The notes beneath the pieces are model-generated. The model was not told the origin of the DNA. It saw nothing but the letters and a program-made list of their open reading frames with translations, and ran no database searches. The translations under genes and the position numbers were made by a program. This document shows positions 3,311 to 59,664 of a stretch of DNA of 59,664 bases, one piece after another. Source of the stretch: Kiritimatiellia bacterium (GTDB taxonomy: Bacteria; Verrucomicrobiota; Kiritimatiellia; RFP12; UBA1067); assembly GCA_016284515.1 (NCBI GenBank), contig JAEEOY010000088.1, forward strand, positions 1-59,664, given 5' to 3'. Position 1 is the first letter of the stretch, and each line of letters opens with the position of its first letter.

Positions 3311-3358
3311 GCGCGACGCCAGTTCTGCTGTTGCATCGCGACAGTGAACCGTAAAACC

Positions 3359-3439
3359 ACCTCGCGAGGTACCCTATGCCTACCTCGCGAGGTATCTTAT
3401 TCCCACCTCGGGAGGTACCCTATGCCTACCTCGCGAGGT
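3359..3439. repeat. Four copies of the 12-bp palindrome ACCTCGCGAGGT at a 23-bp period
   Basis: Copies start at 3359, 3382, 3405 (one mismatch) and 3428. Spacers 1 and 3 are identical (ACCCTATGCCT). Confidence 0.95.
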
Positions 3440-3457
3440 GCCCGCCACCTGCCTCGG

Positions 3458-3579: not shown

Positions 3580-5310
3580 ATGAAAATGAAGTCGCATATA
3601 TTGTCGTTGTTGTTTTGTGCGGCCGCCGCGTGCGGCATGGCTGCGGAGTCGCTTTCGCTTGACGGGAGCTGGAGCTTCCGCTTCGAGGAGGGTAAGCCGA
3701 TAGAGGAGGCCGCGAAGGGGGACTTCGTGGCAACGGATTCGATTCCCGTCCCCGCGTGCTACGACATGATGCCGAAGTGGTACATGAAGCGCGGCACCGG
3801 ACTCTACCGCCGGTCGTTCACGCTCGCGAAGCTGATGAAGGACGCGGTCCTCGTCGTGGACGGAATGGGCGTCCGCGCGAAGTTCGAGCTAGACGGGAAG
3901 GACTTGGGACTTCATCCGTATCCATACGCGCGCCTCGAGATCCCCGTCGGAGCTCTCGCCGCGGGCGAGCACTCCGTCTTCGCGGCGGTCGACAACATCC
4001 TTTCGTGGCCGCGCGTGAAGCTGGCGCGTCCGTACTACGACTTCTATTTCTACGGCGGATTCTACCACGGCGTGAAGCTCGTCGAGCGCGAGCCGAAGGT
4101 CTTTGTCCGCACGCTGGACTACAAGACGGGCAAGGTCGAGGTCGAAGTTGAGAATGGCGGCGATTCCGCCGCGACGCTTGCATTTGACGGGGGGCGGGAG
4201 GTCAATGTCAAATTGAGCGACGGCCGCGCGGCCGTCACCGTTCCGAACTTCCGCCTGTGGTCTCCCGGCGCACCAAACCTTCACAGGCTGTCCGTTCAAC
4301 TTCCAACTTTAAACTTTAAACTTTCAACTCGTTTCGGTATCCGCAAGATCGAGGCGCGGGACAGGAAGATATACCTGAACGGCAGGGAGCTGTTCCTCAA
4401 GGGCTTCAACCGGCACGAGTCCGACTGGCTAAACGGCGCGGCCACGGGCGAAGCGCTCATGCTGCAGGACATCCAGCGCCTGAAGGCGCTCGGCGGCAAC
4501 TTCATACGCGGCGCGCACTACCAGCAGTGCGAACGCTTCCTCGACCTCTGCGACGAAAACGGCGTGCTCGTATGGGAGGAGTCGCTCGGATGGGGCAACG
4601 GACAGGACTACACGAACAACAACTTCCCGCCGAGCGAGCTGAAGGACGCGGAGTTCTGCGAGATGCAGGTGAAGGAGACGCGCGACATGGTGCGCGCGAG
4701 CTTCAACCATCCGTCGGTCATCATCTACGGATTCCTCAACGAGTGCGCCAGCCACAAGAAGGAATGCAAGTCGCTCGTCGACACTCTCGCCGAGACGATA
4801 CGCGCCGAGAATCCGGGGCGCCTCGTGACGTTTGCATGCAACATCACCGACGGCGACATCTGCTGCACGAACATGGACATCGTCTCGTTCAACGCATATC
4901 CGGGGACGATACCGATGGTTCCCGGCGACAACGCGCAGTTCAGGAAATCCGTTTCCTCAAACTTCAACGGAATCGTCGCGAAGTTCCGCGCGCGCTATCC
5001 CGACAAGCCGATCATGGTGTCCGAGTCTGGCTGCGGCGGCGAGTTCGGGCGGCGCGGCGAATACGCCTCGCCGAACACGGAGGAGTTCCAGGACGAGTAC
5101 CTGACGGACATCTTCGAGACGCTGTGGGCGAACCCCGACGTCGTCGGGTTCTCGATCTGGCAGATGAACGACGGCCGGACGCGCGAACGCTTCGGCGGCA
5201 AGGCGGTGTCCGCGATGTTCGGCGGCTCGATCGCCGGCGTCTTCGACCGCCTGCGGCGTCCGAAGCTCTCCGCCGAGACCGTCCGCAAATACTTCAACCT
5301 CAAACCATAA
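3580..5310 (+). CDS. Glycoside hydrolase family 2 (beta-glucuronidase/beta-galactosidase-like), secreted
   Basis: Signal peptide MKMKSHILSLLFCAAAA; motifs RFGIRKIE, LKGFNRHE, NFIRGAHY, LCDENGVLVWEE, NHPSVIIYGFLNE, PIMVSESG. Confidence 0.92.
   Translation: MKMKSHILSLLFCAAAACGMAAESLSLDGSWSFRFEEGKPIEEAAKGDFVATDSIPVPACYDMMPKWYMKRGTGLYRRSFTLAKLMKDAVLVVDGMGVRAKFELDGKDLGLHPYPYARLEIPVGALAAGEHSVFAAVDNILSWPRVKLARPYYDFYFYGGFYHGVKLVEREPKVFVRTLDYKTGKVEVEVENGGDSAATLAFDGGREVNVKLSDGRAAVTVPNFRLWSPGAPNLHRLSVQLPTLNFKLSTRFGIRKIEARDRKIYLNGRELFLKGFNRHESDWLNGAATGEALMLQDIQRLKALGGNFIRGAHYQQCERFLDLCDENGVLVWEESLGWGNGQDYTNNNFPPSELKDAEFCEMQVKETRDMVRASFNHPSVIIYGFLNECASHKKECKSLVDTLAETIRAENPGRLVTFACNITDGDICCTNMDIVSFNAYPGTIPMVPGDNAQFRKSVSSNFNGIVAKFRARYPDKPIMVSESGCGGEFGRRGEYASPNTEEFQDEYLTDIFETLWANPDVVGFSIWQMNDGRTRERFGGKAVSAMFGGSIAGVFDRLRRPKLSAETVRKYFNLKP
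4295..4329 (+). repeat. Five AT-rich 7-mers (TTCAACT-like) inside the GH2 coding sequence
   Basis: ttcaact tccaact ttaaact ttaaact ttcaact. Confidence 0.85.
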
Positions 5311-13358: not shown

Positions 13359-15404
13359 ATGAAAAACTCTTTTTTACCGCTTTATGTCACCAACTTCTTC
13401 GGGACGCTGAACGACAACTTCCTGAAGACGCTGGCGTGCCTGACCGTCATCGGATGGATTGCCGACGAGCGCGTGCGGTCGCTCCTGACGAGTGTTGTCG
13501 CGGGAATGCTCGTCCTGCCCTACATTCTCTGTTCGCCGCTTGCCGACCGGCTGACCGCCGTGTGGCCGAAGCGTCGGATCGTACGCGCGGCGAAATGGGC
13601 GGAACTTCCGATCATGGCCGTTGCGATTGCGGGCTTCGCGCTCCACTCACCGTGGTTCGTCATCGGCGCGGTTCTCCTGATGGGGCTTCAAAGCTCGCTC
13701 TACTCGCCCGCCAAGTACGCGCTTGTGCGCGACATCGGCGGCGCGGAGAGAATCTCGACCGGCATGGGCGGCATGGAGGGCGTCTCGTTTCTCGGCGTGC
13801 TGCTCGGCACTGTGGCGGGTGGCCTTGTGGCCGACCTTCAAGTCCGCCATTCCGAGTGGAATCTCGCCTACTGCTGCCTTGCGACATTCGCCGTGCTCGG
13901 CCTTGCGGCGAGCTACACAGTCAGGGCGAAAGAGGAGCTCAACCGCTCTTTCCACGCCATCAACCCGATTCGCTATATTGCCCGTGCCTACCGAATGGCC
14001 GGTCGCTACGACGGGCTCAATGCCGTCATCTTCACGCTCTCCGTCTTCTGGTGGGGCGCGGCGATGCTCCAGATGGGACTTCTCGTCTACGGCAAGTCGA
14101 AAGTCGGGCTAAACTTGAGCGACACCGGCACGGGGGTACTCCTTTGCGGCGCTGCCGTTGGCATCGTCGCCGGGCAGGTCATCGCCGGCTTTGTCGACAA
14201 ACGTCGCTTCCTTCTCGGCGCGACGCTCTTGACCGGCTGGATCGCCGCGGCGCTTTTTGCCGTTCTCTACTTCGTGCCGCTTTCGCCGACGGCGTTCGGC
14301 GTGGTGCTGGGGCTTCTTGCCTTCGATCTCGGCTTTTTCAAGCTGCCGTTCGACGCCGAGATACAGAAGGTCGTGAAGGGACCGAAGCTCAACACGATGC
14401 TTGCCTACTTCAACCAAGTGTCGTTTCTCTTCATGCTCGCGGCGAGCGGATGCTACGCGCTCGTGAGCTGGGCGTTCGGGCCGAAGGCGTTTCTCCTCTT
14501 GCTCGCGGTCGTCTTTCTCGTAGCGCCGTTCCTCTTCGTGTTCTGTTACCGCTCGGTTCTGCTGTGCGTCGGCCGCTGGGTCTTTGCCTGGAGATACAAG
14601 GTTGAGGTCGAGGATAAGACAGGATTAACAGGATTGACAGGATTAAGAGCTGGGGGAGATCCCCAGACCCCCGAAAATCTTGTTAATCCTGTAAATCCTG
14701 TCAAGAAAACATCGCTCCTCGTCTTGCCGAATCATCCGGCGATGGTGGACCCGATGCTCGTGGGCGTAACGTTCTGGAAGACGCCGCTTAAGCCGCTTTC
14801 AGACGAACTCTTCTTCCACACCGGCATCGTCGCTCCGCGCGTTTTGAAGACACTTGGCGCGGTGGCTGTTCCCGATCTTCGCAAGCACCGCACGGCGAAG
14901 GGCGCGACAATCGCGCGGGGTCTTGGCGACATCGTGAAGTCGACGCTTGAAGACGGCGGGAACGTCATCTTTTATCCCTCGGGGCACATCCAGACCGAGG
15001 GCGAGCAGGAAGACATCGGCACGCGCCAGCTCGCGTACAACATGTGCGGCGATCTGCCCGAGGGGGTGCGCGTCATTGGCGTCAGAACGCGCGGACTCTG
15101 GGGGTCGATCTGGTCGCGCAAGGGGCGCAAGAATTCGCCCTCGTTTGTGCCGACTTTCATCAAGAGCGTATTCCTGTGGTTCTTCTGGTCGCCGTTCGTC
15201 CCGCGCCGCCGCGTGACGATGCACATCGAGGACCTGACCGACCGCGTGAAGGAGTGGTCGAAGCTTACGCGGCTCGAGTTCAACCGAAAGCTGGAGGAGT
15301 GGTACAACGACGAACCACAGACCAACGCAGACGTGCCGTCGCTAACGCTCGGCCAAAATAACGCAAGCGTTAGCGCAGCGTTGTCTGCGAAAGTCTGTGG
15401 TTAA
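13359..15404 (+). CDS. MFS (LplT-like) transporter fused to a PlsC-like acyltransferase domain (Aas-like)
   Basis: TNFFGTLNDNFLK, LYSPAKYALV, ~12 TM helices; acyltransferase NHPAMVDP and FYPSG. Carries repeat-derived peptides at 14618-14702 and at the C-terminus. Confidence 0.85.
   Translation: MKNSFLPLYVTNFFGTLNDNFLKTLACLTVIGWIADERVRSLLTSVVAGMLVLPYILCSPLADRLTAVWPKRRIVRAAKWAELPIMAVAIAGFALHSPWFVIGAVLLMGLQSSLYSPAKYALVRDIGGAERISTGMGGMEGVSFLGVLLGTVAGGLVADLQVRHSEWNLAYCCLATFAVLGLAASYTVRAKEELNRSFHAINPIRYIARAYRMAGRYDGLNAVIFTLSVFWWGAAMLQMGLLVYGKSKVGLNLSDTGTGVLLCGAAVGIVAGQVIAGFVDKRRFLLGATLLTGWIAAALFAVLYFVPLSPTAFGVVLGLLAFDLGFFKLPFDAEIQKVVKGPKLNTMLAYFNQVSFLFMLAASGCYALVSWAFGPKAFLLLLAVVFLVAPFLFVFCYRSVLLCVGRWVFAWRYKVEVEDKTGLTGLTGLRAGGDPQTPENLVNPVNPVKKTSLLVLPNHPAMVDPMLVGVTFWKTPLKPLSDELFFHTGIVAPRVLKTLGAVAVPDLRKHRTAKGATIARGLGDIVKSTLEDGGNVIFYPSGHIQTEGEQEDIGTRQLAYNMCGDLPEGVRVIGVRTRGLWGSIWSRKGRKNSPSFVPTFIKSVFLWFFWSPFVPRRRVTMHIEDLTDRVKEWSKLTRLEFNRKLEEWYNDEPQTNADVPSLTLGQNNASVSAALSAKVCG
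14618..14702. repeat. Family A inverted element (ACAGGATTA x3 ... AATCCTGTN x3) inserted in frame in the CDS
   Basis: gacaggattaacaggattgacaggatt-N29-aatcttgttaatcctgtaaatcctgtc; translates as TGLTGLTGL...LVNPVNPV. Confidence 0.95.
15313..15402. repeat. Family C hairpin element copy 1 (forms the C-terminus of the Aas-like gene)
   Basis: Terminal IR AACCACAGAC/GTCTGTGGTT; inner IR CGCTAACGCT/AGCGTTAGCG; the final T begins the TAA stop. Confidence 0.95.
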
Positions 15405-15428
15405 AAACGAAGGATGATGAGATGAAAG

Positions 15429-15524
15429 AACCGCAGACGAACGCAGACGTGCCGTCGCTAACGCTCGGCAGAGATAAAGGAGGCGCAAGCGTAAGCGCAG
15501 CGCAGTCTGCGAAAGTCTGTGGTT
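15429..15524. repeat. Family C hairpin element copy 2 (also a 34-aa mini-ORF, 15422-15526)
   Basis: Near-identical to copies 1 and 3; ORF MKEPQTNADVPSLTLGRDKGGASVSAAQSAKVCG*. Confidence 0.95.
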
Positions 15525-15550
15525 AAACAATAAGCAAAAGGAGACAAGCT

Positions 15551-16027
15551 ATGGTAACAAAGGAAGAAACAGGTAAGATAATTGGCGTATGCATGGATGT
15601 GTTCCATGAACTTGGTTCAGGATTTCTGGAGCCTGTATACCAGGACGCGGCCGAGATAGCCTTCAGGCAGGCTGGCATTCCCTTTGTTCGCGAGGCGCAA
15701 TGTCCGATTTATTTCCGAGGTGTGAAGATCAATCGGAATTATGAGGCGGATTTTGTTTGCTATGGAGAAGTGATTCTTGAGTTCAAGGCGGTGAAGTGCT
15801 TTGCGCCGGAGCACAAGGCGCAGTTGATCAATTATCTCAAGGCGACACGCATTCCTCTTGGGTATCTCATCAACTTTCACGGTGAGAGGCTGATTTGGGA
15901 GCGCATCGTCTACACTTCGGCAGAGAGTAAACCGCAGACGAACGCAGACGGGCCTTCGCTAACGCTCGGCCAGGATAAAAAAGGCGCAAGCGTTAGCGCG
16001 GCGCAGTCTGCGAAAGTCTGTGGTTAA
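15551..16027 (+). CDS. GxxExxY protein (PD-(D/E)XK-like nuclease, PDDEXK_3), copy 1, with repeat-derived C-terminal tail
   Basis: GFLEPVY motif; YEADFVCYGEVILEFKAV; LLNYLKAT-like QLINYLKAT; GYLINF. Confidence 0.95.
   Translation: MVTKEETGKIIGVCMDVFHELGSGFLEPVYQDAAEIAFRQAGIPFVREAQCPIYFRGVKINRNYEADFVCYGEVILEFKAVKCFAPEHKAQLINYLKATRIPLGYLINFHGERLIWERIVYTSAESKPQTNADGPSLTLGQDKKGASVSAAQSAKVCG
15930..16025. repeat. Family C hairpin element copy 3 (3' end of GxxExxY copy 1)
   Basis: aaccgcagacgaacgcagac...gtctgcgaaagtctgtggtt(aa). Confidence 0.95.
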
Positions 16028-16070
16028 AAACGCAAAGAGGTATTAACAGGATTAAGAAAGGAGCGGAAGC

Positions 16071-17264
16071 ATGAATGTCAACAGAGTGTATGCCGAGGCG
16101 ATAGCGAAATGGGAAGGCGCCAAATCCTGGAGTGGCGACAAGGCGACAAAGCCGTTTGCCGTTCTGTGGGATGATCCGGAAAGCGGCGCGGACTTGAAGG
16201 TCGTGTACAGGACGCCGAAGGAAGAGGGCGTATCCCTGCTCCTGCTTGGGTTCGCGACATGTGTCGTCTTGGCGGCGATTACCGCTCTCCTTTGTCGTGC
16301 CTTTCAGCCAATGTGCGCCATCTTGATAGGCGTACCGCTAATCTTGGCTTTTGCTGTCATCGTGGTGGTTCGCGCCATGCGCCTTGGATGGGTTCGCATG
16401 GAGTATGAGTTCAGGCGAGGAATCGCCACCGTGCGCTATTCAATGGCGGAACACTGGAAGCGTGAGTGGTCGTTCCCCTACAACGACAGGACGAGGCTCT
16501 TCTCCCGCCTGCGGCCGTTCGCCTGTGGGTTCGTCATATCGGAATACGGATTTGTGGATGAGGCGGGCAGCGTCCTGTTTCGCACAAAGCAGGCGATGGA
16601 GCTTCCTCACTACGACTACTTCTCGCTTGTCGTGACGGGTTATCTTTCGCGCGACGAAGACGAAGATAAGTCCGCACGGGATATTGCGGAAAAGTATCGT
16701 GAATGCACTTTGCGTGACAAATCGCTGTCGAGAAAGTGGTGGGCTTTCGTTGTTGTTTCCGCTACGATTGTAATCGCCATGCAATTCATTGACAGCTGTA
16801 GAAAGCCGACAAAGGAAGAAGATCGTGTGCAGAAGGTGATATATGAGGCGTTCCTCAACGGCGGCGACTATCTGGCGGTTGCCGAGGCACAGAAGGCCAA
16901 GTGCGGCAATCGCGCGCAGAAGGGGATAGACGAGGTGTTGGATTACTGTGCGGAATTCTCGGCGGCGCGGCAAGAGCTGAAGGATGCGGGGGCGATTGAG
17001 GACGCTCGCAGTCGCCGTGAAGTGGCGCAGGGAGTAGCTTCAAGATTGCGCGAACGGGTAAAGGCGATGGAAGCCGTCAGACGCAGAAGCGTTGCCAATT
17101 ATGTCTTTGCCCATTCCTTCGAGGATCTGGTTGGGGTGGCCGAATCACTGCGTTCCGCTCCAGACGGCAAGGTAATCGTAATCATAAACGAGAACATGAA
17201 AACCATCATAAACGAGAACATGAAAACCGCCGCGCCGCAACAATCATCGGAGGAAACGAAATGA
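16071..17264 (+). CDS. Hypothetical membrane protein
   Basis: RBS AAAGGAG; three hydrophobic segments; lower GC than core genes. Confidence 0.75.
   Translation: MNVNRVYAEAIAKWEGAKSWSGDKATKPFAVLWDDPESGADLKVVYRTPKEEGVSLLLLGFATCVVLAAITALLCRAFQPMCAILIGVPLILAFAVIVVVRAMRLGWVRMEYEFRRGIATVRYSMAEHWKREWSFPYNDRTRLFSRLRPFACGFVISEYGFVDEAGSVLFRTKQAMELPHYDYFSLVVTGYLSRDEDEDKSARDIAEKYRECTLRDKSLSRKWWAFVVVSATIVIAMQFIDSCRKPTKEEDRVQKVIYEAFLNGGDYLAVAEAQKAKCGNRAQKGIDEVLDYCAEFSAARQELKDAGAIEDARSRREVAQGVASRLRERVKAMEAVRRRSVANYVFAHSFEDLVGVAESLRSAPDGKVIVIINENMKTIINENMKTAAPQQSSEETK
17181..17228 (+). repeat. 24-bp tandem duplication (IINENMKT x2)
   Basis: atcataaacgagaacatgaaaacc twice. Confidence 0.9.
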
Positions 17265-17308
17265 ATGCTCGGCTGATGTTTGCGCGGTGTGTCGCGGGAA
17301 GGTTTCTA

Positions 17309-17756
17309 GACAGGATTAACATGATTAACAGGATTAAGAATGATGAATATAGATGAATTATGCTATAAGGTCATTGGGGCTGCGATGGCAGTGCATCGGC
17401 ACTTTGGCCCCGGATACCTCGAGGAGGTGTATAAAAACGCCTTGATAGTGGAGTTGACGGCGCTTGGTATTCACACAGAAAAAGAAGTTCCCATTGCGGT
17501 TAACTACAAAGGCATTCGCGTGGGAGATTATAGGGCCGATGTAATAGTTGATAATCGACTCATTCTAGAATTGAAAGCTGTAACGAATATCAACCCAAGT
17601 CATGAGGCCCAGGTTGTGAACTATCTTAATGCGACTGGAATAGAGGATGGGCTCTTGATCAATTTTGGAGCGCACTCTCTTCAGCACAAACACAAATACC
17701 GTGTGTATCGCCAGCCGCAGGCTCTTAATCCTGTCAATCCTGTAAATCCTGTCTAA
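17309..17756 (+). mobile_element. Putative element: family A inverted arms enclosing GxxExxY copy 2
   Basis: Left arm 17309-17336 (GACAGGATTAACATGATTAACAGGATT); right arm 17727-17753 plus TAA. Mobility is inferred only. Confidence 0.55.
17340..17756 (+). CDS. GxxExxY protein (PD-(D/E)XK-like nuclease, PDDEXK_3), copy 2
   Basis: GYLEEVY motif; YRADVIVDNRLILELKAV; QVVNYLNAT; GLLINFG; ends in arm-encoded NPVNPVNPV*. Confidence 0.96.
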   Translation: MMNIDELCYKVIGAAMAVHRHFGPGYLEEVYKNALIVELTALGIHTEKEVPIAVNYKGIRVGDYRADVIVDNRLILELKAVTNINPSHEAQVVNYLNATGIEDGLLINFGAHSLQHKHKYRVYRQPQALNPVNPVNPV

Positions 17757-17826
17757 AAAACAAAAGGGAGAAGTAGAGATGAATATGCGAAAGAGATTTG
17801 CTCTGGGTAACGCGGGAAGGTTTTTA

Positions 17827-17902
17827 GACAGGATTAACAAGATTAACAGGATTATGAGAAGAGGATGGAAGTCTTAATCTTGTGAATCCTGTAAATCCTG
17901 TC
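17827..17902. repeat. Family A element, empty (about 22-bp loop)
   Basis: Left arm 17827-17853; right arm 17876-17902 followed by TAAA. Confidence 0.95.
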
Positions 17903-18160: not shown

Positions 18161-18197
18161 GAGCGGAGAAATGGAAATGAACGCGGGAAGGTTTTTA

Positions 18198-18434
18198 GAC
18201 AGGATTAACATGATTAACAGGATTTTAGCATGGAGAACAGGAGATACAGAAGATAGGGTTTTTGGCATGGAGAACAGGGGAAGCAGGAGGAAAACTGGGG
18301 TTGCCGCACCCTGCATTGACCCGCCTGCGGCGCTCGCTTCGCTCGGGGGATACCCAGCCCCCGCCGAAGGCGGACCTAAACTCTCCTGCATCTCTTGCTC
18401 TACCTGCTTAAAAAACAATCCTGTAAAACCTGTC
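18198..18434. repeat. Family A element with nested CAGGAG/CTCCTGC inverted arms
   Basis: Outer A arms; inner arms acaggaga.../ctcctgcatctcttgctctacctgcttaaa; near-identical to 19409-19607 apart from a ~40-bp insert. Confidence 0.92.
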
Positions 18435-18459
18435 TAAACAAAGACAAGGAGAAAGTGAA

Positions 18460-19311: not shown

Positions 19312-19408
19312 AGACTTCAAGTGTGAGTCAAAGTGCAAAAAGAGGAAAGGAGCAAACTTATGAATATGCGAAGAGGATTTGCTGCAGCTGCCGCGGGAAG
19401 GTTTTTTA

Positions 19409-19607
19409 GACAGGATTAACATGATTAACAGGATTTTTGCATGGAGAACAGGAGATGCAGAAGATGGTTTTTGGCTTGGAGAACAGGAGAGGCAGGAGGA
19501 AGACTGGGGTAGCCATCCCAGACCCCGCCGAAGGCGGACCTAAACTCTCCTGCATCTCCTGCTCTACCTGCTTAAAAAACAATCTTGTCAATCCTGTAAA
19601 TCCTGTC
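19409..19607. repeat. Family A element with nested CAGGAG/CTCCTGC arms (second copy)
   Basis: Left arm 19409-19435; right arm 19581-19607 followed by TAAAAAA. Confidence 0.95.
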
Positions 19608-19646
19608 TAAAAAAACAACTGGAACGAATTTCAAGGAGGAACAACA

Positions 19647-23191: not shown

Positions 23192-25261
23192 ATGGGAATA
23201 GTAGTGATTGGCGTATTGGCCGTGCTCAGCGTTCCGATCATGCTGATTGTGGCTCTCGTTAAGCTGTCCTGGATAGAAGACCAGCTGTCGTCGCTCTGCA
23301 AGAAGATCGAGATAGCCGATGTCTCCAGAAATCTCAAGTCCGTGCCAAAGCCGGCCGCGCCGGTAAAAGACAATGCGGAGGAAACCGAAATGAAGAATCG
23401 AATTGAGAAGCAGGAAATGACTGGGGGAAGCGGCGTCTCGCCGCTTCAGGAAAGAGGAAATGTCATTGTTGTAGAGAAGCGCCGGGACGGCGCTTCCCCC
23501 AGTCAGGAAGAGGATGTTTACGAGAAGCGCCGGGACGGCGCTTCCCCCAGTCAGGAAGAGGATGTTTACGAGAAGCGGCGGGACGGCGCTTCCCCCAGTC
23601 AGAATGACGATTCATATGAGCCGACGGCGCTCGACATCTTCTGGATGCGCGTCGAGGACTGGTTCGCCGTGCGCGGCGACTTCGCGCCGAAGGGGATGAC
23701 GCACGAATTCGCCTTCGCGACGCGCTGGCTCGTGCGCGTAGGCGTGGCGCTGATCGTTGGCGCGATCATCTACTTCGTGAAGCTGTCGATCGACCGCGGA
23801 TGGATGGGTCCGACGGGACGCGTCGTCGCGACGCTCGCCTGTGGCGCGGCATTCAGCGTCGGCGGCTCGTGGCTCGTGAAGAAGGAGAGGTACTCGCTTC
23901 TCGGACACGCCATCGCCGCGCTCGGAGTCGTTGCGCTGTACCTCGGTTTCGGACTCGGACACCGCTTCTTCGATCCACCCGTGATCGCGTCGCCCGTGAT
24001 CGCGTTCTGCGCGCTCGCGGCGGTGACGTTCTGCGCAGGCGTGATGTCCGTCTACCTCCGTTCGCCCTACATCGCGGTGATGGGACTCGTCGGCGGATAT
24101 CTCGTCCCGGTGATCGCAGGTCGCGACAGCGGATTCCCGCTCTGGTTGGATGCGTATCTCCTCGTCCTGAACCTCGGCGCGTTCTACGTCGCGCGGATGC
24201 GCAGGTGGTCCGCGCTCGACTTCCTCGCGTCGATGCTTGCGTTCGCGATGTGCTGCATCTGGGGCGCGCGGCATCCGGAATTCGGCGGACGCGCCGCAGT
24301 GCTCGTCAACTTCGCGTTCCTCTCGGCCGTCCACGCGCTCTACATGACGAGCGTCATGGTCGGCTCGAGGATGCGCAGCGAGTCCGAGGACGCCATCGCG
24401 TGGGCCGGGCTCTCCGTCAACGCATGCTGCTATTTCGGATGGCTCGCGTGGGTCTTCCGCGCCGGATTCGCCGACCGCGCTACGGGGGTTGTGCTGCTCG
24501 CGCTCGTCGCCGCGTATTTTGCCGTCGCGTATCTCGCGACAAAGCGCGGTTGGGCGGACCGCGCGACCGTTGGCATACTCGTGGTCTTCGCGCTTACGTA
24601 TCTGTCCATCGTGCCGCTCCTGCTGTTCAGCCGTCCGTGGTGCGTCGTCTCTTGGTCCGTCCTCGCCGTCGCGACGGCGGAGGCCGAGTCGCGCAGCCGT
24701 CAGCGCATTCTCGGCATCGCCTCGTTTCTGCTTCTCGCGGCCGCGGCGTGGTCGGGCATTCTTTACTACGCGCCCCTCGCGTACTGCCAGCGCTCGGTCT
24801 ATGCGCTGACGGCGCTTTCCGGAGGGGAGTATTTCGTCGAGTTCGCGCTGCGGCTCGTGCGGCTCTGGACTCTTCCCGCGGCGGCCGTGTTTGTCGCGCG
24901 GCGACTCAGGGTCGACGCGCTTGCCATCGCCGCGCTCATCGTCGCGTTCCTATTCTTCACGGGGGAGGCGCGCAACTTCGGATACGTCTTCTTCCCGTCG
25001 CTCAAGACGGGTATGGTGTCCGTCGCGTGGCTGATTGCCGCGTTCGGCGGACTCTGGGCGGGCATCGTCTTCCGCAGCCGCCTGTCGCGCATCTGTTCGC
25101 TCTCGCTTCTCGGCGTCTCCGTCGCTAAGGTGCTCGTCATCGACACCGCGCACCTCACGACTCCGGTCCGCGTCGCGCTCTTCGCGCTCTCCGGCGTCCT
25201 CCTCATCGTCGGCGCGTTCCTCTACATGAAGTTCAGGGAAAGGTTCGAAGACAATGCGTAA
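23192..25261 (+). CDS. DUF2339 family multi-pass membrane protein
   Basis: EFAFATRWLVRVG, IYFVKLSID, GWMGPTGRV; C-terminal KVLVIDTAHL...RVALF; REP-derived linker. Confidence 0.85.
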   Translation: MGIVVIGVLAVLSVPIMLIVALVKLSWIEDQLSSLCKKIEIADVSRNLKSVPKPAAPVKDNAEETEMKNRIEKQEMTGGSGVSPLQERGNVIVVEKRRDGASPSQEEDVYEKRRDGASPSQEEDVYEKRRDGASPSQNDDSYEPTALDIFWMRVEDWFAVRGDFAPKGMTHEFAFATRWLVRVGVALIVGAIIYFVKLSIDRGWMGPTGRVVATLACGAAFSVGGSWLVKKERYSLLGHAIAALGVVALYLGFGLGHRFFDPPVIASPVIAFCALAAVTFCAGVMSVYLRSPYIAVMGLVGGYLVPVIAGRDSGFPLWLDAYLLVLNLGAFYVARMRRWSALDFLASMLAFAMCCIWGARHPEFGGRAAVLVNFAFLSAVHALYMTSVMVGSRMRSESEDAIAWAGLSVNACCYFGWLAWVFRAGFADRATGVVLLALVAAYFAVAYLATKRGWADRATVGILVVFALTYLSIVPLLLFSRPWCVVSWSVLAVATAEAESRSRQRILGIASFLLLAAAAWSGILYYAPLAYCQRSVYALTALSGGEYFVEFALRLVRLWTLPAAAVFVARRLRVDALAIAALIVAFLFFTGEARNFGYVFFPSLKTGMVSVAWLIAAFGGLWAGIVFRSRLSRICSLSLLGVSVAKVLVIDTAHLTTPVRVALFALSGVLLIVGAFLYMKFRERFEDNA
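23419..23600. repeat. Four 29-bp REP-like palindromes in frame within the DUF2339 gene (1 forward, 3 reverse at a 48-bp period)
   Basis: GACTGGGGGAAGCGGCGTCTCGCCGCTTC at 23419; reverse-type copies at 23476, 23524, 23572; identical intergenic copy at 59454-59482. Confidence 0.93.
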
Positions 25262-59251: not shown

Positions 59252-59350
59252 AGGGGGTTCCGTCGCTCCGCGACGCAACAATGAAGGGCGTGGAGCAGAT
59301 GACTAGAAAACCACTTTCCATTCGCCACCCTCGCATGCTCCCGATTATTT
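59252..59350 (+). repeat. 99-bp direct repeat copy 1 (starts with a GTTGCGTCG/CGACGCAAC-type hairpin)
   Basis: Matches 59558-59656 with one mismatch. Confidence 0.95.
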
Positions 59351-59403
59351 AATTTCGTGCGAGAGTTGTGAATGTCCGTCGCTCGGCCGTCATGGTAGAG
59401 GTC

Positions 59404-59525
59404 TAGCCGGGTAGAACATGTAGAGCATGTAGAAGGGGGTGGAGAGGCCGTTTGACTGGGGGAAGCGGCGTCTCGCCGCTTCAAGATATCTCACACAGAG
59501 GCGCGGAGAGGCCGAGAGCGCAGAG
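59404..59525. repeat. Cluster of repeat arms: family B arm, 29-bp REP, CACAGAG/GCAGAG arm
   Basis: tagccgggtagaacatgtagagcatgtagaa; gactgggggaagcggcgtctcgccgcttc; cacagaggcgcggagaggccgagagcgcagagg. Confidence 0.88.
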
Positions 59526-59557: not shown

Positions 59558-59656
59558 AGGGGGTTGCGTCGCTCCGCGACGCAACAATGAAGGGCGTGGA
59601 GCAGATGACTAGAAAACCACTTTCCATTCGCCACCCTCGCATGCTCCCGATTATTT
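59558..59656 (+). repeat. 99-bp direct repeat copy 2
   Basis: agggggttgcgtcgctccgcgacgcaac...gattattt. Confidence 0.95.
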
Positions 59657-59664
59657 GATTTCTT

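What the first reader, a model, noticed from the sequence alone, without database searches (positions are those of the whole stretch)
15313..16027. Family C hairpins are frame-preserving (90/96/96 bp), stop-terminated, and rewrite protein C-termini
SEEN: three copies with nested inverted repeats (AACCRCAGAC/GTCTGTGGTT; CGCTAACGCT/AGCGTTAGCG) are all read in the same frame and all end in TAA. They give the Aas-like protein and GxxExxY-1 nearly the same ~30-aa tail, and the middle copy forms its own 34-aa ORF. KNOWN: Aas-type MFS-acyltransferases often continue into an AMP-binding domain. INFERENCE: copy 1 may have truncated such a gene, or the shared tail may act as a tag (degradation, localisation, interaction).
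Basis: partly seen in the sequence, partly recalled or inferred. Interest (0 to 1): 0.65.

Follow-up and report, generated by a model that had tools for sequence, protein, structure and literature searches.

The report
Hairpin repeats add incidental protein tails
Three copies of a 90-96 bp hairpin-forming repeat sit at gene ends in a gut Kiritimatiellae genome and lend two proteins a dispensable ~30-residue tail; the repeat looks like the gene-less form of a widespread small inverted-repeat element that carries a GxxExxY nuclease gene.

Summary
Three palindromic copies lie at 15313-15404, 15429-15526 and 15930-16027. All are read in the same element frame and all end in TAA. They form the C-terminal tails of the Aas-like protein and GxxExxY-1, and a 34-aa ORF.

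Of the 120 closest Aas-like orthologues, 105 lack the element and end within 0-2 residues of the junction (...EEWYNA/AE/D*) or in other short repeat-derived tails. So nothing was truncated. Presence is scattered among near-identical strains.

The tail is predicted disordered. Some copies have lost the frame. It shows only a weak coding signature. An open frame through such a sequence is expected in about 73% of shuffles.

The element's termini (TTAACCGCAGAC-N3-CGCAGAC) also bound short repeats in Desulfobacterota and other phyla. In those phyla the same termini enclose ~0.5 kb units carrying a GxxExxY (PD-(D/E)XK) gene. GxxExxY genes in Treponema, Lentisphaeria and Fibrobacter are bracketed by related inverted repeats.

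Family C is therefore best read as the gene-less derivative of a GxxExxY-associated inverted-repeat element, and the tails as by-products. How the element moves is unknown.

The parts
13359..15404 (+). Aas-like ORF (MFS/LplT-like domain plus weak PlsC-type acyltransferase match). The last 30 codons (15312-15401) and the stop come from Family C copy 1.
   Evidence: Orthologues without the element end at the same residue, give or take 2.
15313..15404 (+). Family C copy 1: 90 nt from AACC to GGTT, plus AA completing TAA. The short-loop variant.
15405..15428 (+). Spacer duplicated together with the element. It carries AAGGA and the ATG at 15422 that starts the 34-aa ORF. An extra unit of this spacer plus element is present in L121.
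15429..15526 (+). Family C copy 2 (96 nt plus AA). Together with the ATG at 15422 it forms the 34-aa ORF MKEPQTNAD...KVCG.
   Evidence: The orthologous copy in L121 has a 4-nt deletion and loses the frame.
15527..15550 (+). Spacer with AAGGAG ahead of the GxxExxY-1 start codon.
15551..16027 (+). GxxExxY-1 (PD-(D/E)XK, PF13366/TIGR04256). The family profile ends at residue 120. Residues 127-158 (15929-16024) and the stop are encoded by copy 3.
15930..16027 (+). Family C copy 3 (96 nt plus AA).
16028..16070 (+). Spacer shared with unrelated loci (L109, L121, L125). It contains a fragment of the ACAGGATTA repeat family and AAGGAG ahead of the next ORF (16071-17264).
17303..17759 (+). Related architecture: GxxExxY-2 (17340-17756) enclosed by 37-nt inverted arms, each built from three ACAGGATTA-type units.
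14617..14719 (+). Palindromic element of the ACAGGATTA family, inserted in frame in the interdomain linker of the Aas-like gene.

Best explanation
Family C is a small, hairpin-forming, gene-less inverted-repeat element, MITE-like in form. It belongs to a superfamily whose termini are built from two or three direct 7-mers at about 10-bp spacing: TTAACCGCAGAC-N3-CGCAGAC, inverted at the other end. The longer members of that superfamily carry a GxxExxY (PD-(D/E)XK nuclease) gene between the arms.

In this gut Kiritimatiellae lineage the copies sit in the short spacers of a hypervariable string of co-directional genes downstream of the Aas-like gene. They flank the GxxExxY-1 gene on both sides.

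Where the left arm abuts a gene in place of its stop codon, the ORF runs on through the one frame of the element that is open. It then stops at the TAA formed by the element's right tip (GGTTAA). This yields a disordered tail of about 30 residues.

The tails are by-products of insertion and of recombination between copies. Those processes also create tandem copies and gain or lose the GxxExxY cassette.

Shown: the repeat, the hairpin, the ORF geometry, the orthologue ends, the presence/absence polymorphism, the shared termini, and the GxxExxY association. Inferred: that the element is mobile, and that the tails have no function. Unknown: the enzyme and mechanism of movement.
For: Repeat and hairpin.

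Orthologue ends and polymorphism:
- 105 of 120 Aas-like orthologues lack the element and end within 0-2 residues of the junction or in other short repeat-derived tails.
- Empty and filled junctions were read at the DNA level.
- Presence is scattered on the orthologue tree: 16 tips, at least 13 changes. The window's nearest relative, at 97.7% identity, lacks the element.

Tail properties:
- The GxxExxY family profile ends at residue 120 of 158, and the median homologue is 126 aa.
- The tail has pLDDT below 50 while the core is above 88.
- Frame-shifted or stop-less copies exist: P0019, P0011, P0012, P0162, and the 92-nt copy in L121.
- A sister GxxExxY clade reads the same kind of arm in another frame and stops at the inner TAA...RTTDNTDRLR*.

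Rarity: the tail peptide is found in only 28 and 12 proteins among billions, always in one narrow lineage and in several unrelated protein contexts. One of these, P0156, is an internal in-frame insertion.

Recombination: copies are mosaics. L125 holds a single chimeric copy where the window and L141 have copy-GxxExxY-copy.

Superfamily and GxxExxY link:
- The same termini bound 72-350-bp elements in Desulfobacterota and other taxa.
- The same termini enclose GxxExxY genes in L043 (two copies), L017, L004 and L053. In L043 the two units share 517 nt at 78% identity exactly from terminus to terminus, with unrelated flanks.
- The two L043 cargo genes differ mostly at third codon positions: 61 of 82 differences.
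- GxxExxY genes in Treponema, Lentisphaeria and Fibrobacter are bracketed by 25-35-nt inverted repeats with related 7-mers and a GCTAACGC-like motif.

Transcription: RNA-derived contigs run from the Aas-like 3' end through copies 1 and 2, and across copy 3.
Against: - No target-site duplication or clean empty site could be defined. The TTAA-like tips are themselves palindromic, and empty alleles differ downstream as well.
- No recognised transposase lies between such termini in any locus held.
- In the window the GxxExxY gene lies between two complete hairpins, not inside one, so the direction of derivation (gene-bearing to gene-less) is inferred.
- Six of eight length classes are multiples of three.
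- Synonymous changes are somewhat enriched in the tail frame: 16 of 33, against 9-10 of 33 in the other two frames.
- Stand-alone copies have an AAGGA motif and an ATG 7 nt upstream, or an ATGA stop-start overlap.

The last three points hint at some selection for translation through the element.
Confidence: 0.7

Rival explanations
1. The open frame through each hairpin is selected so that ribosomes melt the hairpin. Every copy in the operon-like string is covered by an ORF, either a gene tail or a mini-ORF with its own start. That ORF ends exactly at the 3' base of the stem, 17-43 nt before the next start codon. This would keep a -50 kcal/mol structure from blocking expression of downstream genes and would couple their translation. 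The peptide itself would be irrelevant. This reading is compatible with the element being a mobile repeat.
For: - All copies in the window and in syntenic loci are covered by an ORF in the same element frame.
- Stand-alone copies carry AAGGA-N7-ATG, or an ATGA stop-start overlap with the upstream hydrolase gene.
- Stop-to-start distances are 17, 24 and 43 nt, with AAGGAG motifs.
- Six of eight length classes are multiples of three.
- G-U intermediates, but almost no A-C, occur at the two variable stem pairs on the + strand.
- RNA contigs span the elements.
Against: - An open frame is expected by chance in about 73% of shuffles.
- Copies that have lost the frame or contain an internal stop persist: the 92-nt copy in L121, L140 and L143.
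- Half-elements at other sites are not covered by the upstream gene.
- The copies are few and related by descent, so they are not independent trials.
- No translation data exist.
Confidence: 0.2
2. The shared tail is a functional peptide module (degradation, localisation or interaction tag) added to several proteins.
For: - Nearly the same peptide sits on at least five unrelated protein contexts.
- Tail identity among Aas-like orthologues (87.6%) is close to that of the preceding 100 residues (89.6%).
- There is a modest excess of synonymous changes in the tail frame.
Against: - The tail is dispensable in 105 of 120 orthologues and is polymorphic among strains about 98% identical.
- It is predicted disordered.
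- Variation concentrates in the hairpin loop and in the unpaired 3-nt spacers, as expected for a nucleic-acid-level constraint.
- Frame-shifted versions exist.
- The sister clade uses another frame.
- The reverse strand encodes almost the same peptide simply because the DNA is a palindrome.
- Third-position bias is 45%, against 74% in the real cargo gene.
Confidence: 0.1
3. The hairpins act mainly at the RNA level, like rRNA intervening sequences or REP/ERIC/Correia elements. They would be RNase III or other processing sites, or 3'-exonuclease barriers, that excise or stabilise the GxxExxY message within a polycistronic transcript.
For: - The hairpins are long and stable and are co-transcribed with flanking genes.
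- GxxExxY genes are enclosed by inverted arms, as ORFs are in rRNA intervening sequences.
- Stem changes on the + strand tolerate G-U.
Against: - No compensatory double changes were seen.
- Both strands fold equally well.
- No Rfam family matched.
- No read-end data are available; only assembled contigs could be laid.
- The 3-nt spacers between the 7-mers are never complementary between the arms, which fits phased protein-binding sites on DNA at least as well.
Confidence: 0.2
4. The hairpins are attC-like recombination sites of an integron-like cassette array (a cluster lacking the integrase), and GxxExxY-1 and its neighbours are cassettes.
For: - The hairpins are imperfect palindromes of 60-140 nt bounded by AAC...GTT. 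All share one orientation and sit directly after co-directional small ORFs.
- Gene content downstream of the Aas-like gene differs between strains cassette by cassette.
- Toxin-antitoxin genes neighbour the related loci L156 and L158.
- The GxxExxY cassette is precisely present or absent between copies.
Against: - The RYYYAAC/GTTRRRY boxes fit only partly: GTTAAAC at copy 2, but GTTAAAA at copies 1 and 3, and the left ends do not fit.
- Each arm holds direct, not inverted, 7-mers.
- No tyrosine recombinase was found among the 26 window ORFs scanned.
- The same termini enclose single genes scattered in ordinary intergenic sites in Desulfobacterota.
- Homologous recombination between copies explains the presence/absence equally well.
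Confidence: 0.05
5. The elements are REP/REPIN sequences mobilised by a RAYT (Y1/HUH) transposase.
For: A RAYT-like gene (NF047646, E = 9e-12, below the family cut-off; PF01797 above its cut-off) lies directly upstream of the Aas-like gene in L153, L155 and L135.
Against: - That gene is not flanked by any CGCAGAC-type motif and is absent from the window.
- The arms are direct 7-mer repeats, not the short palindromes typical of REPs.
- The elements co-occur with GxxExxY genes instead.
Confidence: 0.05

Closest known systems
Rickettsia palindromic elements (RPE), and MITE-derived peptide segments in general (from my own knowledge: Ogata et al. 2000; Delihas 2007-2008 on ERIC/MITE ORFs)
   Same: Short palindromic repeats are tolerated inside or at the ends of protein-coding genes. 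They add in-frame, structurally independent peptide segments without destroying the host protein. Here that means C-terminal tails, one internal insertion (P0156) and the linker insertions in the Aas-like gene.
   Different: No sequence relationship was tested. Family C sits mostly at stop codons and in intergenic spacers. It has phased direct 7-mers in each arm and is linked to a GxxExxY gene, none of which is described for RPEs.
Correia / ERIC / BOX-type MITEs of Neisseria, enterobacteria and pneumococci
   Same: They are hairpin-forming repeats of 100-150 bp with terminal inverted repeats. They are co-transcribed with neighbouring genes, polymorphic between strains, and have no transposase of their own.
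   Different: The termini differ. No TA duplication was seen. Here gene-carrying relatives exist, and their cargo is a PD-(D/E)XK protein.
REPIN-RAYT systems
   Same: Hairpin-forming repeats occur in intergenic spacers, and a Y1-type gene is present in some related genomes.
   Different: The RAYT-like gene is not flanked by the repeats, and the arms are not REP-like palindromes.
23S rRNA intervening sequences that enclose small ORFs
   Same: A small ORF is enclosed by a long inverted-repeat stem. This holds for GxxExxY-2 in the window, the L043 units, L162 and L165.
   Different: These elements are not in rRNA (no rRNA in the window). They lie between protein genes. Excision at the RNA level was not shown.
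Integron attC sites
   Same: Imperfect palindromes bounded by AAC...GTT follow each ORF of a variable, co-directional gene string, and ORFs run into the site.
   Different: The consensus boxes fit only partly, the 7-mers in each arm are direct repeats, and no integrase was found.

Membership tests
MITE (miniature inverted-repeat transposable element) | Small size (under about 600 bp) with no coding capacity for a transposase | tested here: met
   The element is 90-96 nt. Its only ORF is the read-through frame.
MITE (miniature inverted-repeat transposable element) | Terminal inverted repeats | tested here: met
   AACCRCAGAC-N3-CGCAGAC is inverted at the other end.
MITE (miniature inverted-repeat transposable element) | Several copies, with presence/absence polymorphism between close relatives | tested here: met
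   There are 3 copies in the window and 5 in L121. 15 of 120 orthologous sites are filled, and filled sites are scattered on the tree.
MITE (miniature inverted-repeat transposable element) | Target-site duplication | tested here: inconclusive
   The tips read TTAA in most relatives, but this is itself palindromic. Empty alleles differ downstream, so no duplication could be read.
MITE (miniature inverted-repeat transposable element) | A longer partner with the same termini that encodes the transposase | tested here: inconclusive
   Longer units with the same termini exist, but they carry a GxxExxY PD-(D/E)XK gene, whose role in movement is unknown. No known transposase was found between such termini.
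REP/REPIN-RAYT | The RAYT gene is flanked by the repeats it mobilises | tested here: not met
   The RAYT-like gene in L153 and L155 has no CGCAGAC-type motif around it. There is none in the window.
Integron attC | R'' RYYYAAC and R' GTTRRRY boxes at the two ends | tested here: inconclusive
   AAC and GTT are present. GTTAAAC fits at copy 2, but GTTAAAA at copies 1 and 3 does not, and the left ends (GACGAAC, AAAGAAC, AGTAAAC) do not fit. No attC model was available.
Integron attC | An integron integrase (tyrosine recombinase) next to the array | tested here: not met
   No recombinase domain was found in the 26 window ORFs scanned against Pfam. About a third of the ORFs of the window, mostly beyond 36 kb, were not scanned.
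Intrinsic (Rho-independent) terminator | A G+C-rich hairpin followed by a run of U on the transcribed strand | tested here: not met
   The stems are followed by AAAAACG or AAACAAT. The scan finds no + strand terminator at the copies, and the total equals the shuffle expectation.
Known RNA families (Rfam 15) | A match to a curated covariance model | tested here: not met
   No match at gathering score in the window except one tRNA. No match at E <= 1 in 15250-16100.
In-frame palindromic insertions of the Rickettsia RPE kind | A palindromic repeat adds an in-frame peptide segment to an otherwise intact protein | tested here: met
   The Aas-like and GxxExxY domains are complete ahead of the tail. 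P0156 holds an internal in-frame copy. In-frame linker insertions occur in the Aas-like gene.
In-frame palindromic insertions of the Rickettsia RPE kind | Sequence relationship to the described RPE families | not tested
   No RPE sequences were at hand.
rRNA intervening-sequence-like ORF elements | An ORF enclosed by a long inverted-repeat stem | tested here: met
   GxxExxY-2 arms 17303-17339 and 17723-17759 are 89% complementary. The same architecture holds for L162, L165 and L043. GxxExxY-1 instead lies between two complete hairpins.
rRNA intervening-sequence-like ORF elements | Location inside an rRNA gene and excision from the transcript | tested here: not met
   There is no rRNA in the window. 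Excision could not be tested, because only assembled RNA contigs were available.

The most novel reading that the evidence does not exclude
GxxExxY proteins (PF13366/TIGR04256) form a large PD-(D/E)XK family listed as of unknown function. They may be the resident genes of a phylum-spanning class of very small (about 0.45-0.6 kb) inverted-repeat elements. The arms of these elements are phased arrays of a 7-9-mer (CGCAGAC, CACGGAT, ACAGGATTA).

Under this reading the nuclease recognises those arrays and drives spread by homing or transposition, or drives excision of the unit at the RNA level. Gene-less hairpins such as Family C would be its non-autonomous offspring. They litter operon spacers, carry stops in all three frames, and occasionally rewrite protein ends.
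Probability: 0.35. Interest if true: 0.75.

Novelty: new variant of a known kind. Interest (0 to 1): 0.5.

Why it matters
For the finding as written, the result is sobering. The shared tail is most likely an incidental product of a repeat landing on stop codons. That is a known way for bacteria to acquire short disordered extensions, and it is a caution for gene callers and domain-architecture comparisons in repeat-rich uncultured genomes.

The wider value lies in the link to GxxExxY. It gives an uncharacterised and very widespread nuclease family a concrete, testable nucleic-acid partner: phased 7-mer arrays in inverted arms. It also gives that family a plausible selfish-element lifestyle. 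Finally, it explains why the spacers and even the linkers of genes in this Kiritimatiellae lineage are filled with palindromes.

Tried and rejected
1. Lost left stop codon. I asked whether the tail arises from loss of a left-tip TAA still present in '...WYND*' alleles. It does not: those alleles are empty sites with TAG and no element.

2. RAYT as mobiliser. The RAYT-like gene next to the Aas-like gene in L153, L155 and L135 has no element motifs around it and is absent from the window.

3. Conventional autonomous transposon between the same termini. Only one candidate pair enclosed a long ORF (L045), and that ORF looks like an alpha/beta hydrolase sitting between two separate elements.

4. 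Integron reading. No recombinase was found among the window ORFs scanned, and the boxes fit only partly.

5. Rfam, at both thresholds: nothing.

6. Terminator and promoter scans: nothing at the copies on the + strand.

7. Covariation. Seventeen distinct copies give no compensatory pair changes. The family is too young for this test.

8. Literature. Searches for the terminus sequence, GxxExxY, PDDEXK_3, PF13366 and TIGR04256 returned only primer coincidences and a catalogue entry listing the family as 'Unknown'.

It spent the only genome-contig scan, but it is what exposed the Desulfobacterota relatives.

11. Solved structures by sequence: none. PHROGs: none. Fold search gives only generic PD-(D/E)XK neighbours such as Cas4 SSO0001 and lambda exonuclease.


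Full report
**What is there.** Three copies of one palindromic element lie at 15313-15404, 15429-15526 and 15930-16027. From AACC to GGTT they measure 90, 96 and 96 nt. The following AA completes a TAA. The arm patterns occur nowhere else in the 59.6 kb window and are expected about 0 times by chance.

Each copy folds into a single long imperfect hairpin on either strand, with dG of -50 to -59 kcal/mol and z-scores of -6 to -10. The fold has four parts:
- a 10-bp outer stem (AACCRCAGAC/GTCTGYGGTT);
- a 3x3 internal loop;
- a 7-bp stem (CGCAGAC/GTCTGCG);
- an imperfect inner stem holding GCTAACGCT/AGCGTTAGC, closed by a variable loop.

The Aas-like ORF (13359-15404), a 34-aa ORF (15422-15526) and GxxExxY-1 (15551-16027) all read the element in the same frame and stop at its terminal TAA. 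The three peptides are 84-85% identical.

**How much of this exceeds chance.** The repeat and the hairpin clearly do. The open frame does not. The other two forward frames are closed by the TAA of GCTAACGC and the TAA of the GATAA loop. About 73% of composition-matched shuffles also keep at least one frame open. Because the DNA is a palindrome, the reverse strand encodes almost the same peptide, PQTFAD...VCG.

**Organism and setting.** The Aas-like protein has 120 listed orthologues at 81-96% identity, and the named ones are Kiritimatiellae MAGs. Runs holding the sequence are bovine, sheep and other gut metagenomes. The window is ordinary chromosome, carrying pheT, murA, fucose isomerase and similar genes. 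The 26 window ORFs scanned against Pfam include no integrase or transposase.

**Was the Aas-like gene truncated?** No. Of the 120 orthologues, 15 carry the element tail. The other 105 end as follows: WYN-AE (38), -A (24), -D (8) or -DK (1), with the rest in other short tails such as DGVGVF or DGVILAAKNAKDAKCF that come from other repeat families.

All orthologues are 613-699 aa long. The length differences come from the interdomain linker.

At the DNA level, empty sites read AAC GAT TAG (L153, L154) or AAC GCG GAG TGA (L120). Filled sites read AAC GA[TC] GAA CCA CAG AC.... The element thus replaces the stop codon.

Presence is scattered over a tree of the gene bodies: 16 tips and at least 13 changes. 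The window's closest relative, at 97.7% identity, lacks the element. The tail is dispensable for this protein.

**GxxExxY-1.** The TIGR04256 profile is complete at residue 120 of 158. More distant homologues have a median length of 126 aa and end 2-10 residues after the last conserved motif.

An AlphaFold model gives pLDDT of 83-98 for the core and below 50, with no secondary structure, for residues 125-155. Fold neighbours are generic PD-(D/E)XK nucleases.

Of the eight closest orthologues, seven carry element-derived tails and the eighth (P0165) a tail from another repeat family. Two of the seven change frame within the element (P0162, P0166).

**Is the peptide selected?** The evidence is weak and mixed.

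Among 17 distinct copies there are no compensatory stem changes. The outer stems are invariant, and variation concentrates in the loop and the unpaired 3-nt spacer.

In the tail frame, 16 of 33 substitutions are synonymous, against 9-10 of 33 in the other frames. Fifteen of 33 (45%) fall at third positions. In a real gene of the same system, the two GxxExxY copies of L043, 61 of 82 differences (74%) are at third positions.

Six of eight length classes (63, 90, 93, 96, 99 and 240, but not 89 or 92) are multiples of three.

Frame-shifted and stop-less copies persist. A sister GxxExxY clade reads the same kind of arm in another frame and stops at the inner TAA...EWIRTTDNTDRLR*.

Searches of 5.8 and 1.8 billion proteins found the peptide in only 28 and 12 entries. 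All come from this narrow lineage. Most are small ORFs, plus tails on a few unrelated proteins and one internal in-frame copy, P0156.

**Dynamics.** L121 is a syntenic Kiritimatiellae MAG. It has an extra tandem unit (spacer plus element) and one copy with a 4-nt deletion. L141 has Aas-copy-GxxExxY-copy with no tandem copy.

L125 has a single chimeric copy, with the left end of the Aas-side copy and the interior of the copy that follows GxxExxY, and no GxxExxY gene. Copies are mosaics of a few arm and loop variants.

Recombination between copies therefore duplicates units and gains or loses the GxxExxY cassette. The whole stretch downstream of the Aas-like gene differs gene by gene between strains.

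**Transcription.** RNA-derived contigs from rumen and gut metatranscriptomes span 15246-15527, 15501-15870 and 15930-16037. The elements are therefore transcribed with their neighbours. The caveat is that these are assemblies and may contain DNA.

**The wider family.** The loose pattern scan of one genome per species returned mostly Desulfobacterota, plus Nitrospirota, cyanobacteria and others. A stricter scan of metagenomes returned 31 loci.

In these loci the same termini bound otherwise unrelated elements of 72-350 bp, many of them A+T-rich. The termini read TTAACCGCAGAC-N3-CGCAGAC(-N3-CGCAGAC), inverted at the other end. The 3-nt spacers are not complementary between the arms. The 7-mers are spaced by one helical turn.

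Loci fetched only because they contain these termini hold GxxExxY genes next to or between them:
- L043 has two units. They share 517 nt at 78% identity, running exactly from terminus to terminus, and their flanks are unrelated. Their genes are under purifying selection.
- L017, L004 and L053 show the same architecture: arm, small hairpin, ribosome-binding site, GxxExxY of about 115-127 aa, small hairpin, arm.
- L110 and L137 show the hairpin-gene-hairpin arrangement seen in the window.

Pig-gut and other metagenome paralogues (L156-L158) are flanked by sister hairpins. These use CACGGAT-type 7-mers and the same inner GCTAACGC motif.

GxxExxY genes chosen only for taxonomic spread are each bracketed by 25-35-nt inverted repeats with related 7-mers. 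They come from Treponema (L162), Lentisphaeria (L165, sitting between wzm and wzt) and Fibrobacter (L159).

In the window itself, GxxExxY-2 lies between 37-nt arms made of three ACAGGATTA units.

**Interpretation.** Family C is the gene-less, self-pairing form of an inverted-repeat element whose longer forms carry a GxxExxY nuclease gene. The tails arise because the left arm abuts the end of a gene and the only open frame ends at the right tip's TAA.

What moves the element is not established:
- No target duplication could be read.
- No known transposase was found between such termini.
- The RAYT-like gene seen in some relatives is not associated with the repeats.
- The integron reading lacks an integrase and fits the attC boxes only in part.

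Two non-exclusive functional rivals remain open. One is selection for translation through the hairpin so that ribosomes keep it melted and couple downstream genes. The other is an RNA-level role in processing or stabilisation. A functional tag is the least supported reading.

**Literature.** The library held nothing on these termini or on a link between GxxExxY genes and inverted repeats. The PD-(D/E)XK catalogue lists PF13366 as 'Unknown'. In-frame palindromic insertions (Rickettsia RPEs) and MITE-derived peptide ends are known from my own knowledge, so the tail phenomenon itself is not new.

Noticed in passing
window 14617-14719: A palindromic element is inserted in frame in the interdomain linker of the Aas-like gene. 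It consists of ACAGGATTA x3 facing TAATCCTGT x3 and encodes TGLTGLTGL...NPVNPV. Forty of the 78 orthologues that could be scored have a plain 13-14-aa linker. The others carry this or other palindromic insertions of 37-82 aa.
   Followed up: partly
window 17303-17759: GxxExxY-2 (17340-17756) lies between 37-nt inverted arms (89% complementary) of the ACAGGATTA family, and its last residues (NPVNPVNPV) are encoded by the right arm. Further copies of this family fill the spacers at 17821-17900, 18197-18451 and 19408-19624.
   Followed up: partly
L043 (reverse-complement coordinates 1088-1626 and 4481-4997); also L017, L004, L053: Units of about 0.52 kb in Desulfobacterota consist of TTAACCGCAGAC-type arms enclosing a GxxExxY gene. 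Two copies in one contig are 78% identical exactly from arm to arm. 61 of the 82 differences between the two genes fall at third codon positions.
   Followed up: yes
L165 1165-1600; L162 1107-1610; L159 1104-1668: GxxExxY genes in Lentisphaeria (between the wzm and wzt transporter genes), Treponema and Fibrobacter (after a split MmeI-type gene) are each bracketed by 25-35-nt inverted repeats with CACGGAT-like 7-mers.
   Followed up: partly
L153 1886-3004; L155 1892-3001; L135 about 13367-14107: A 370-aa RAYT-like Y1 gene (PF01797 and NF047646 matches) lies directly upstream of the Aas-like gene in some relatives. It is absent from the window and has no Family C motifs around it.
   Followed up: partly
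L120 5885-6010; L155 4875-4975: Other short repeat families follow the Aas-like stop in element-free strains: CGCAAAG x3, CGCAGAG x3, and then ACAGGATTA hairpins. They account for alternative tails such as GVILAAKNAKDAKCF.
   Followed up: no
L109 6985-7015: A left half-element (ATGAATAAACCGCAGACGAACGCAGAC) supplies the start codon and first nine residues (MNKPQTNAD) of a 336-aa protein with a signal-peptide-like N-terminus.
   Followed up: no
L138 about 1020-1142; L144/L145: Right half-elements sit inside what look like fragments of a YpsA/SLOG-like gene (…SGGQTGVDRGA… and …EWNVTHSDATLIIT…). This suggests gene disruption or assembly breaks at the repeats.
   Followed up: no
window 3334-3448: A tandem array of a 23-nt unit (CCACCTCGCGAGGTACCCTATGC, four to five copies) containing the palindrome CCTCGCGAGG. 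It lies between the fucose isomerase and glycoside hydrolase genes.
   Followed up: no
window 23467-23620: Three tandem copies of a 48-nt unit with an internal hairpin (GCGCCGGGACGGCGC), near the 5' end of the DUF2339 membrane-protein ORF. A related 34-nt piece recurs at 23418-23451 and 59453-59486.
   Followed up: no
window 59252-59356 and 59558-59662: A 105-nt direct repeat, 98% identical, spaced 306 nt apart at the end of the window.
   Followed up: no
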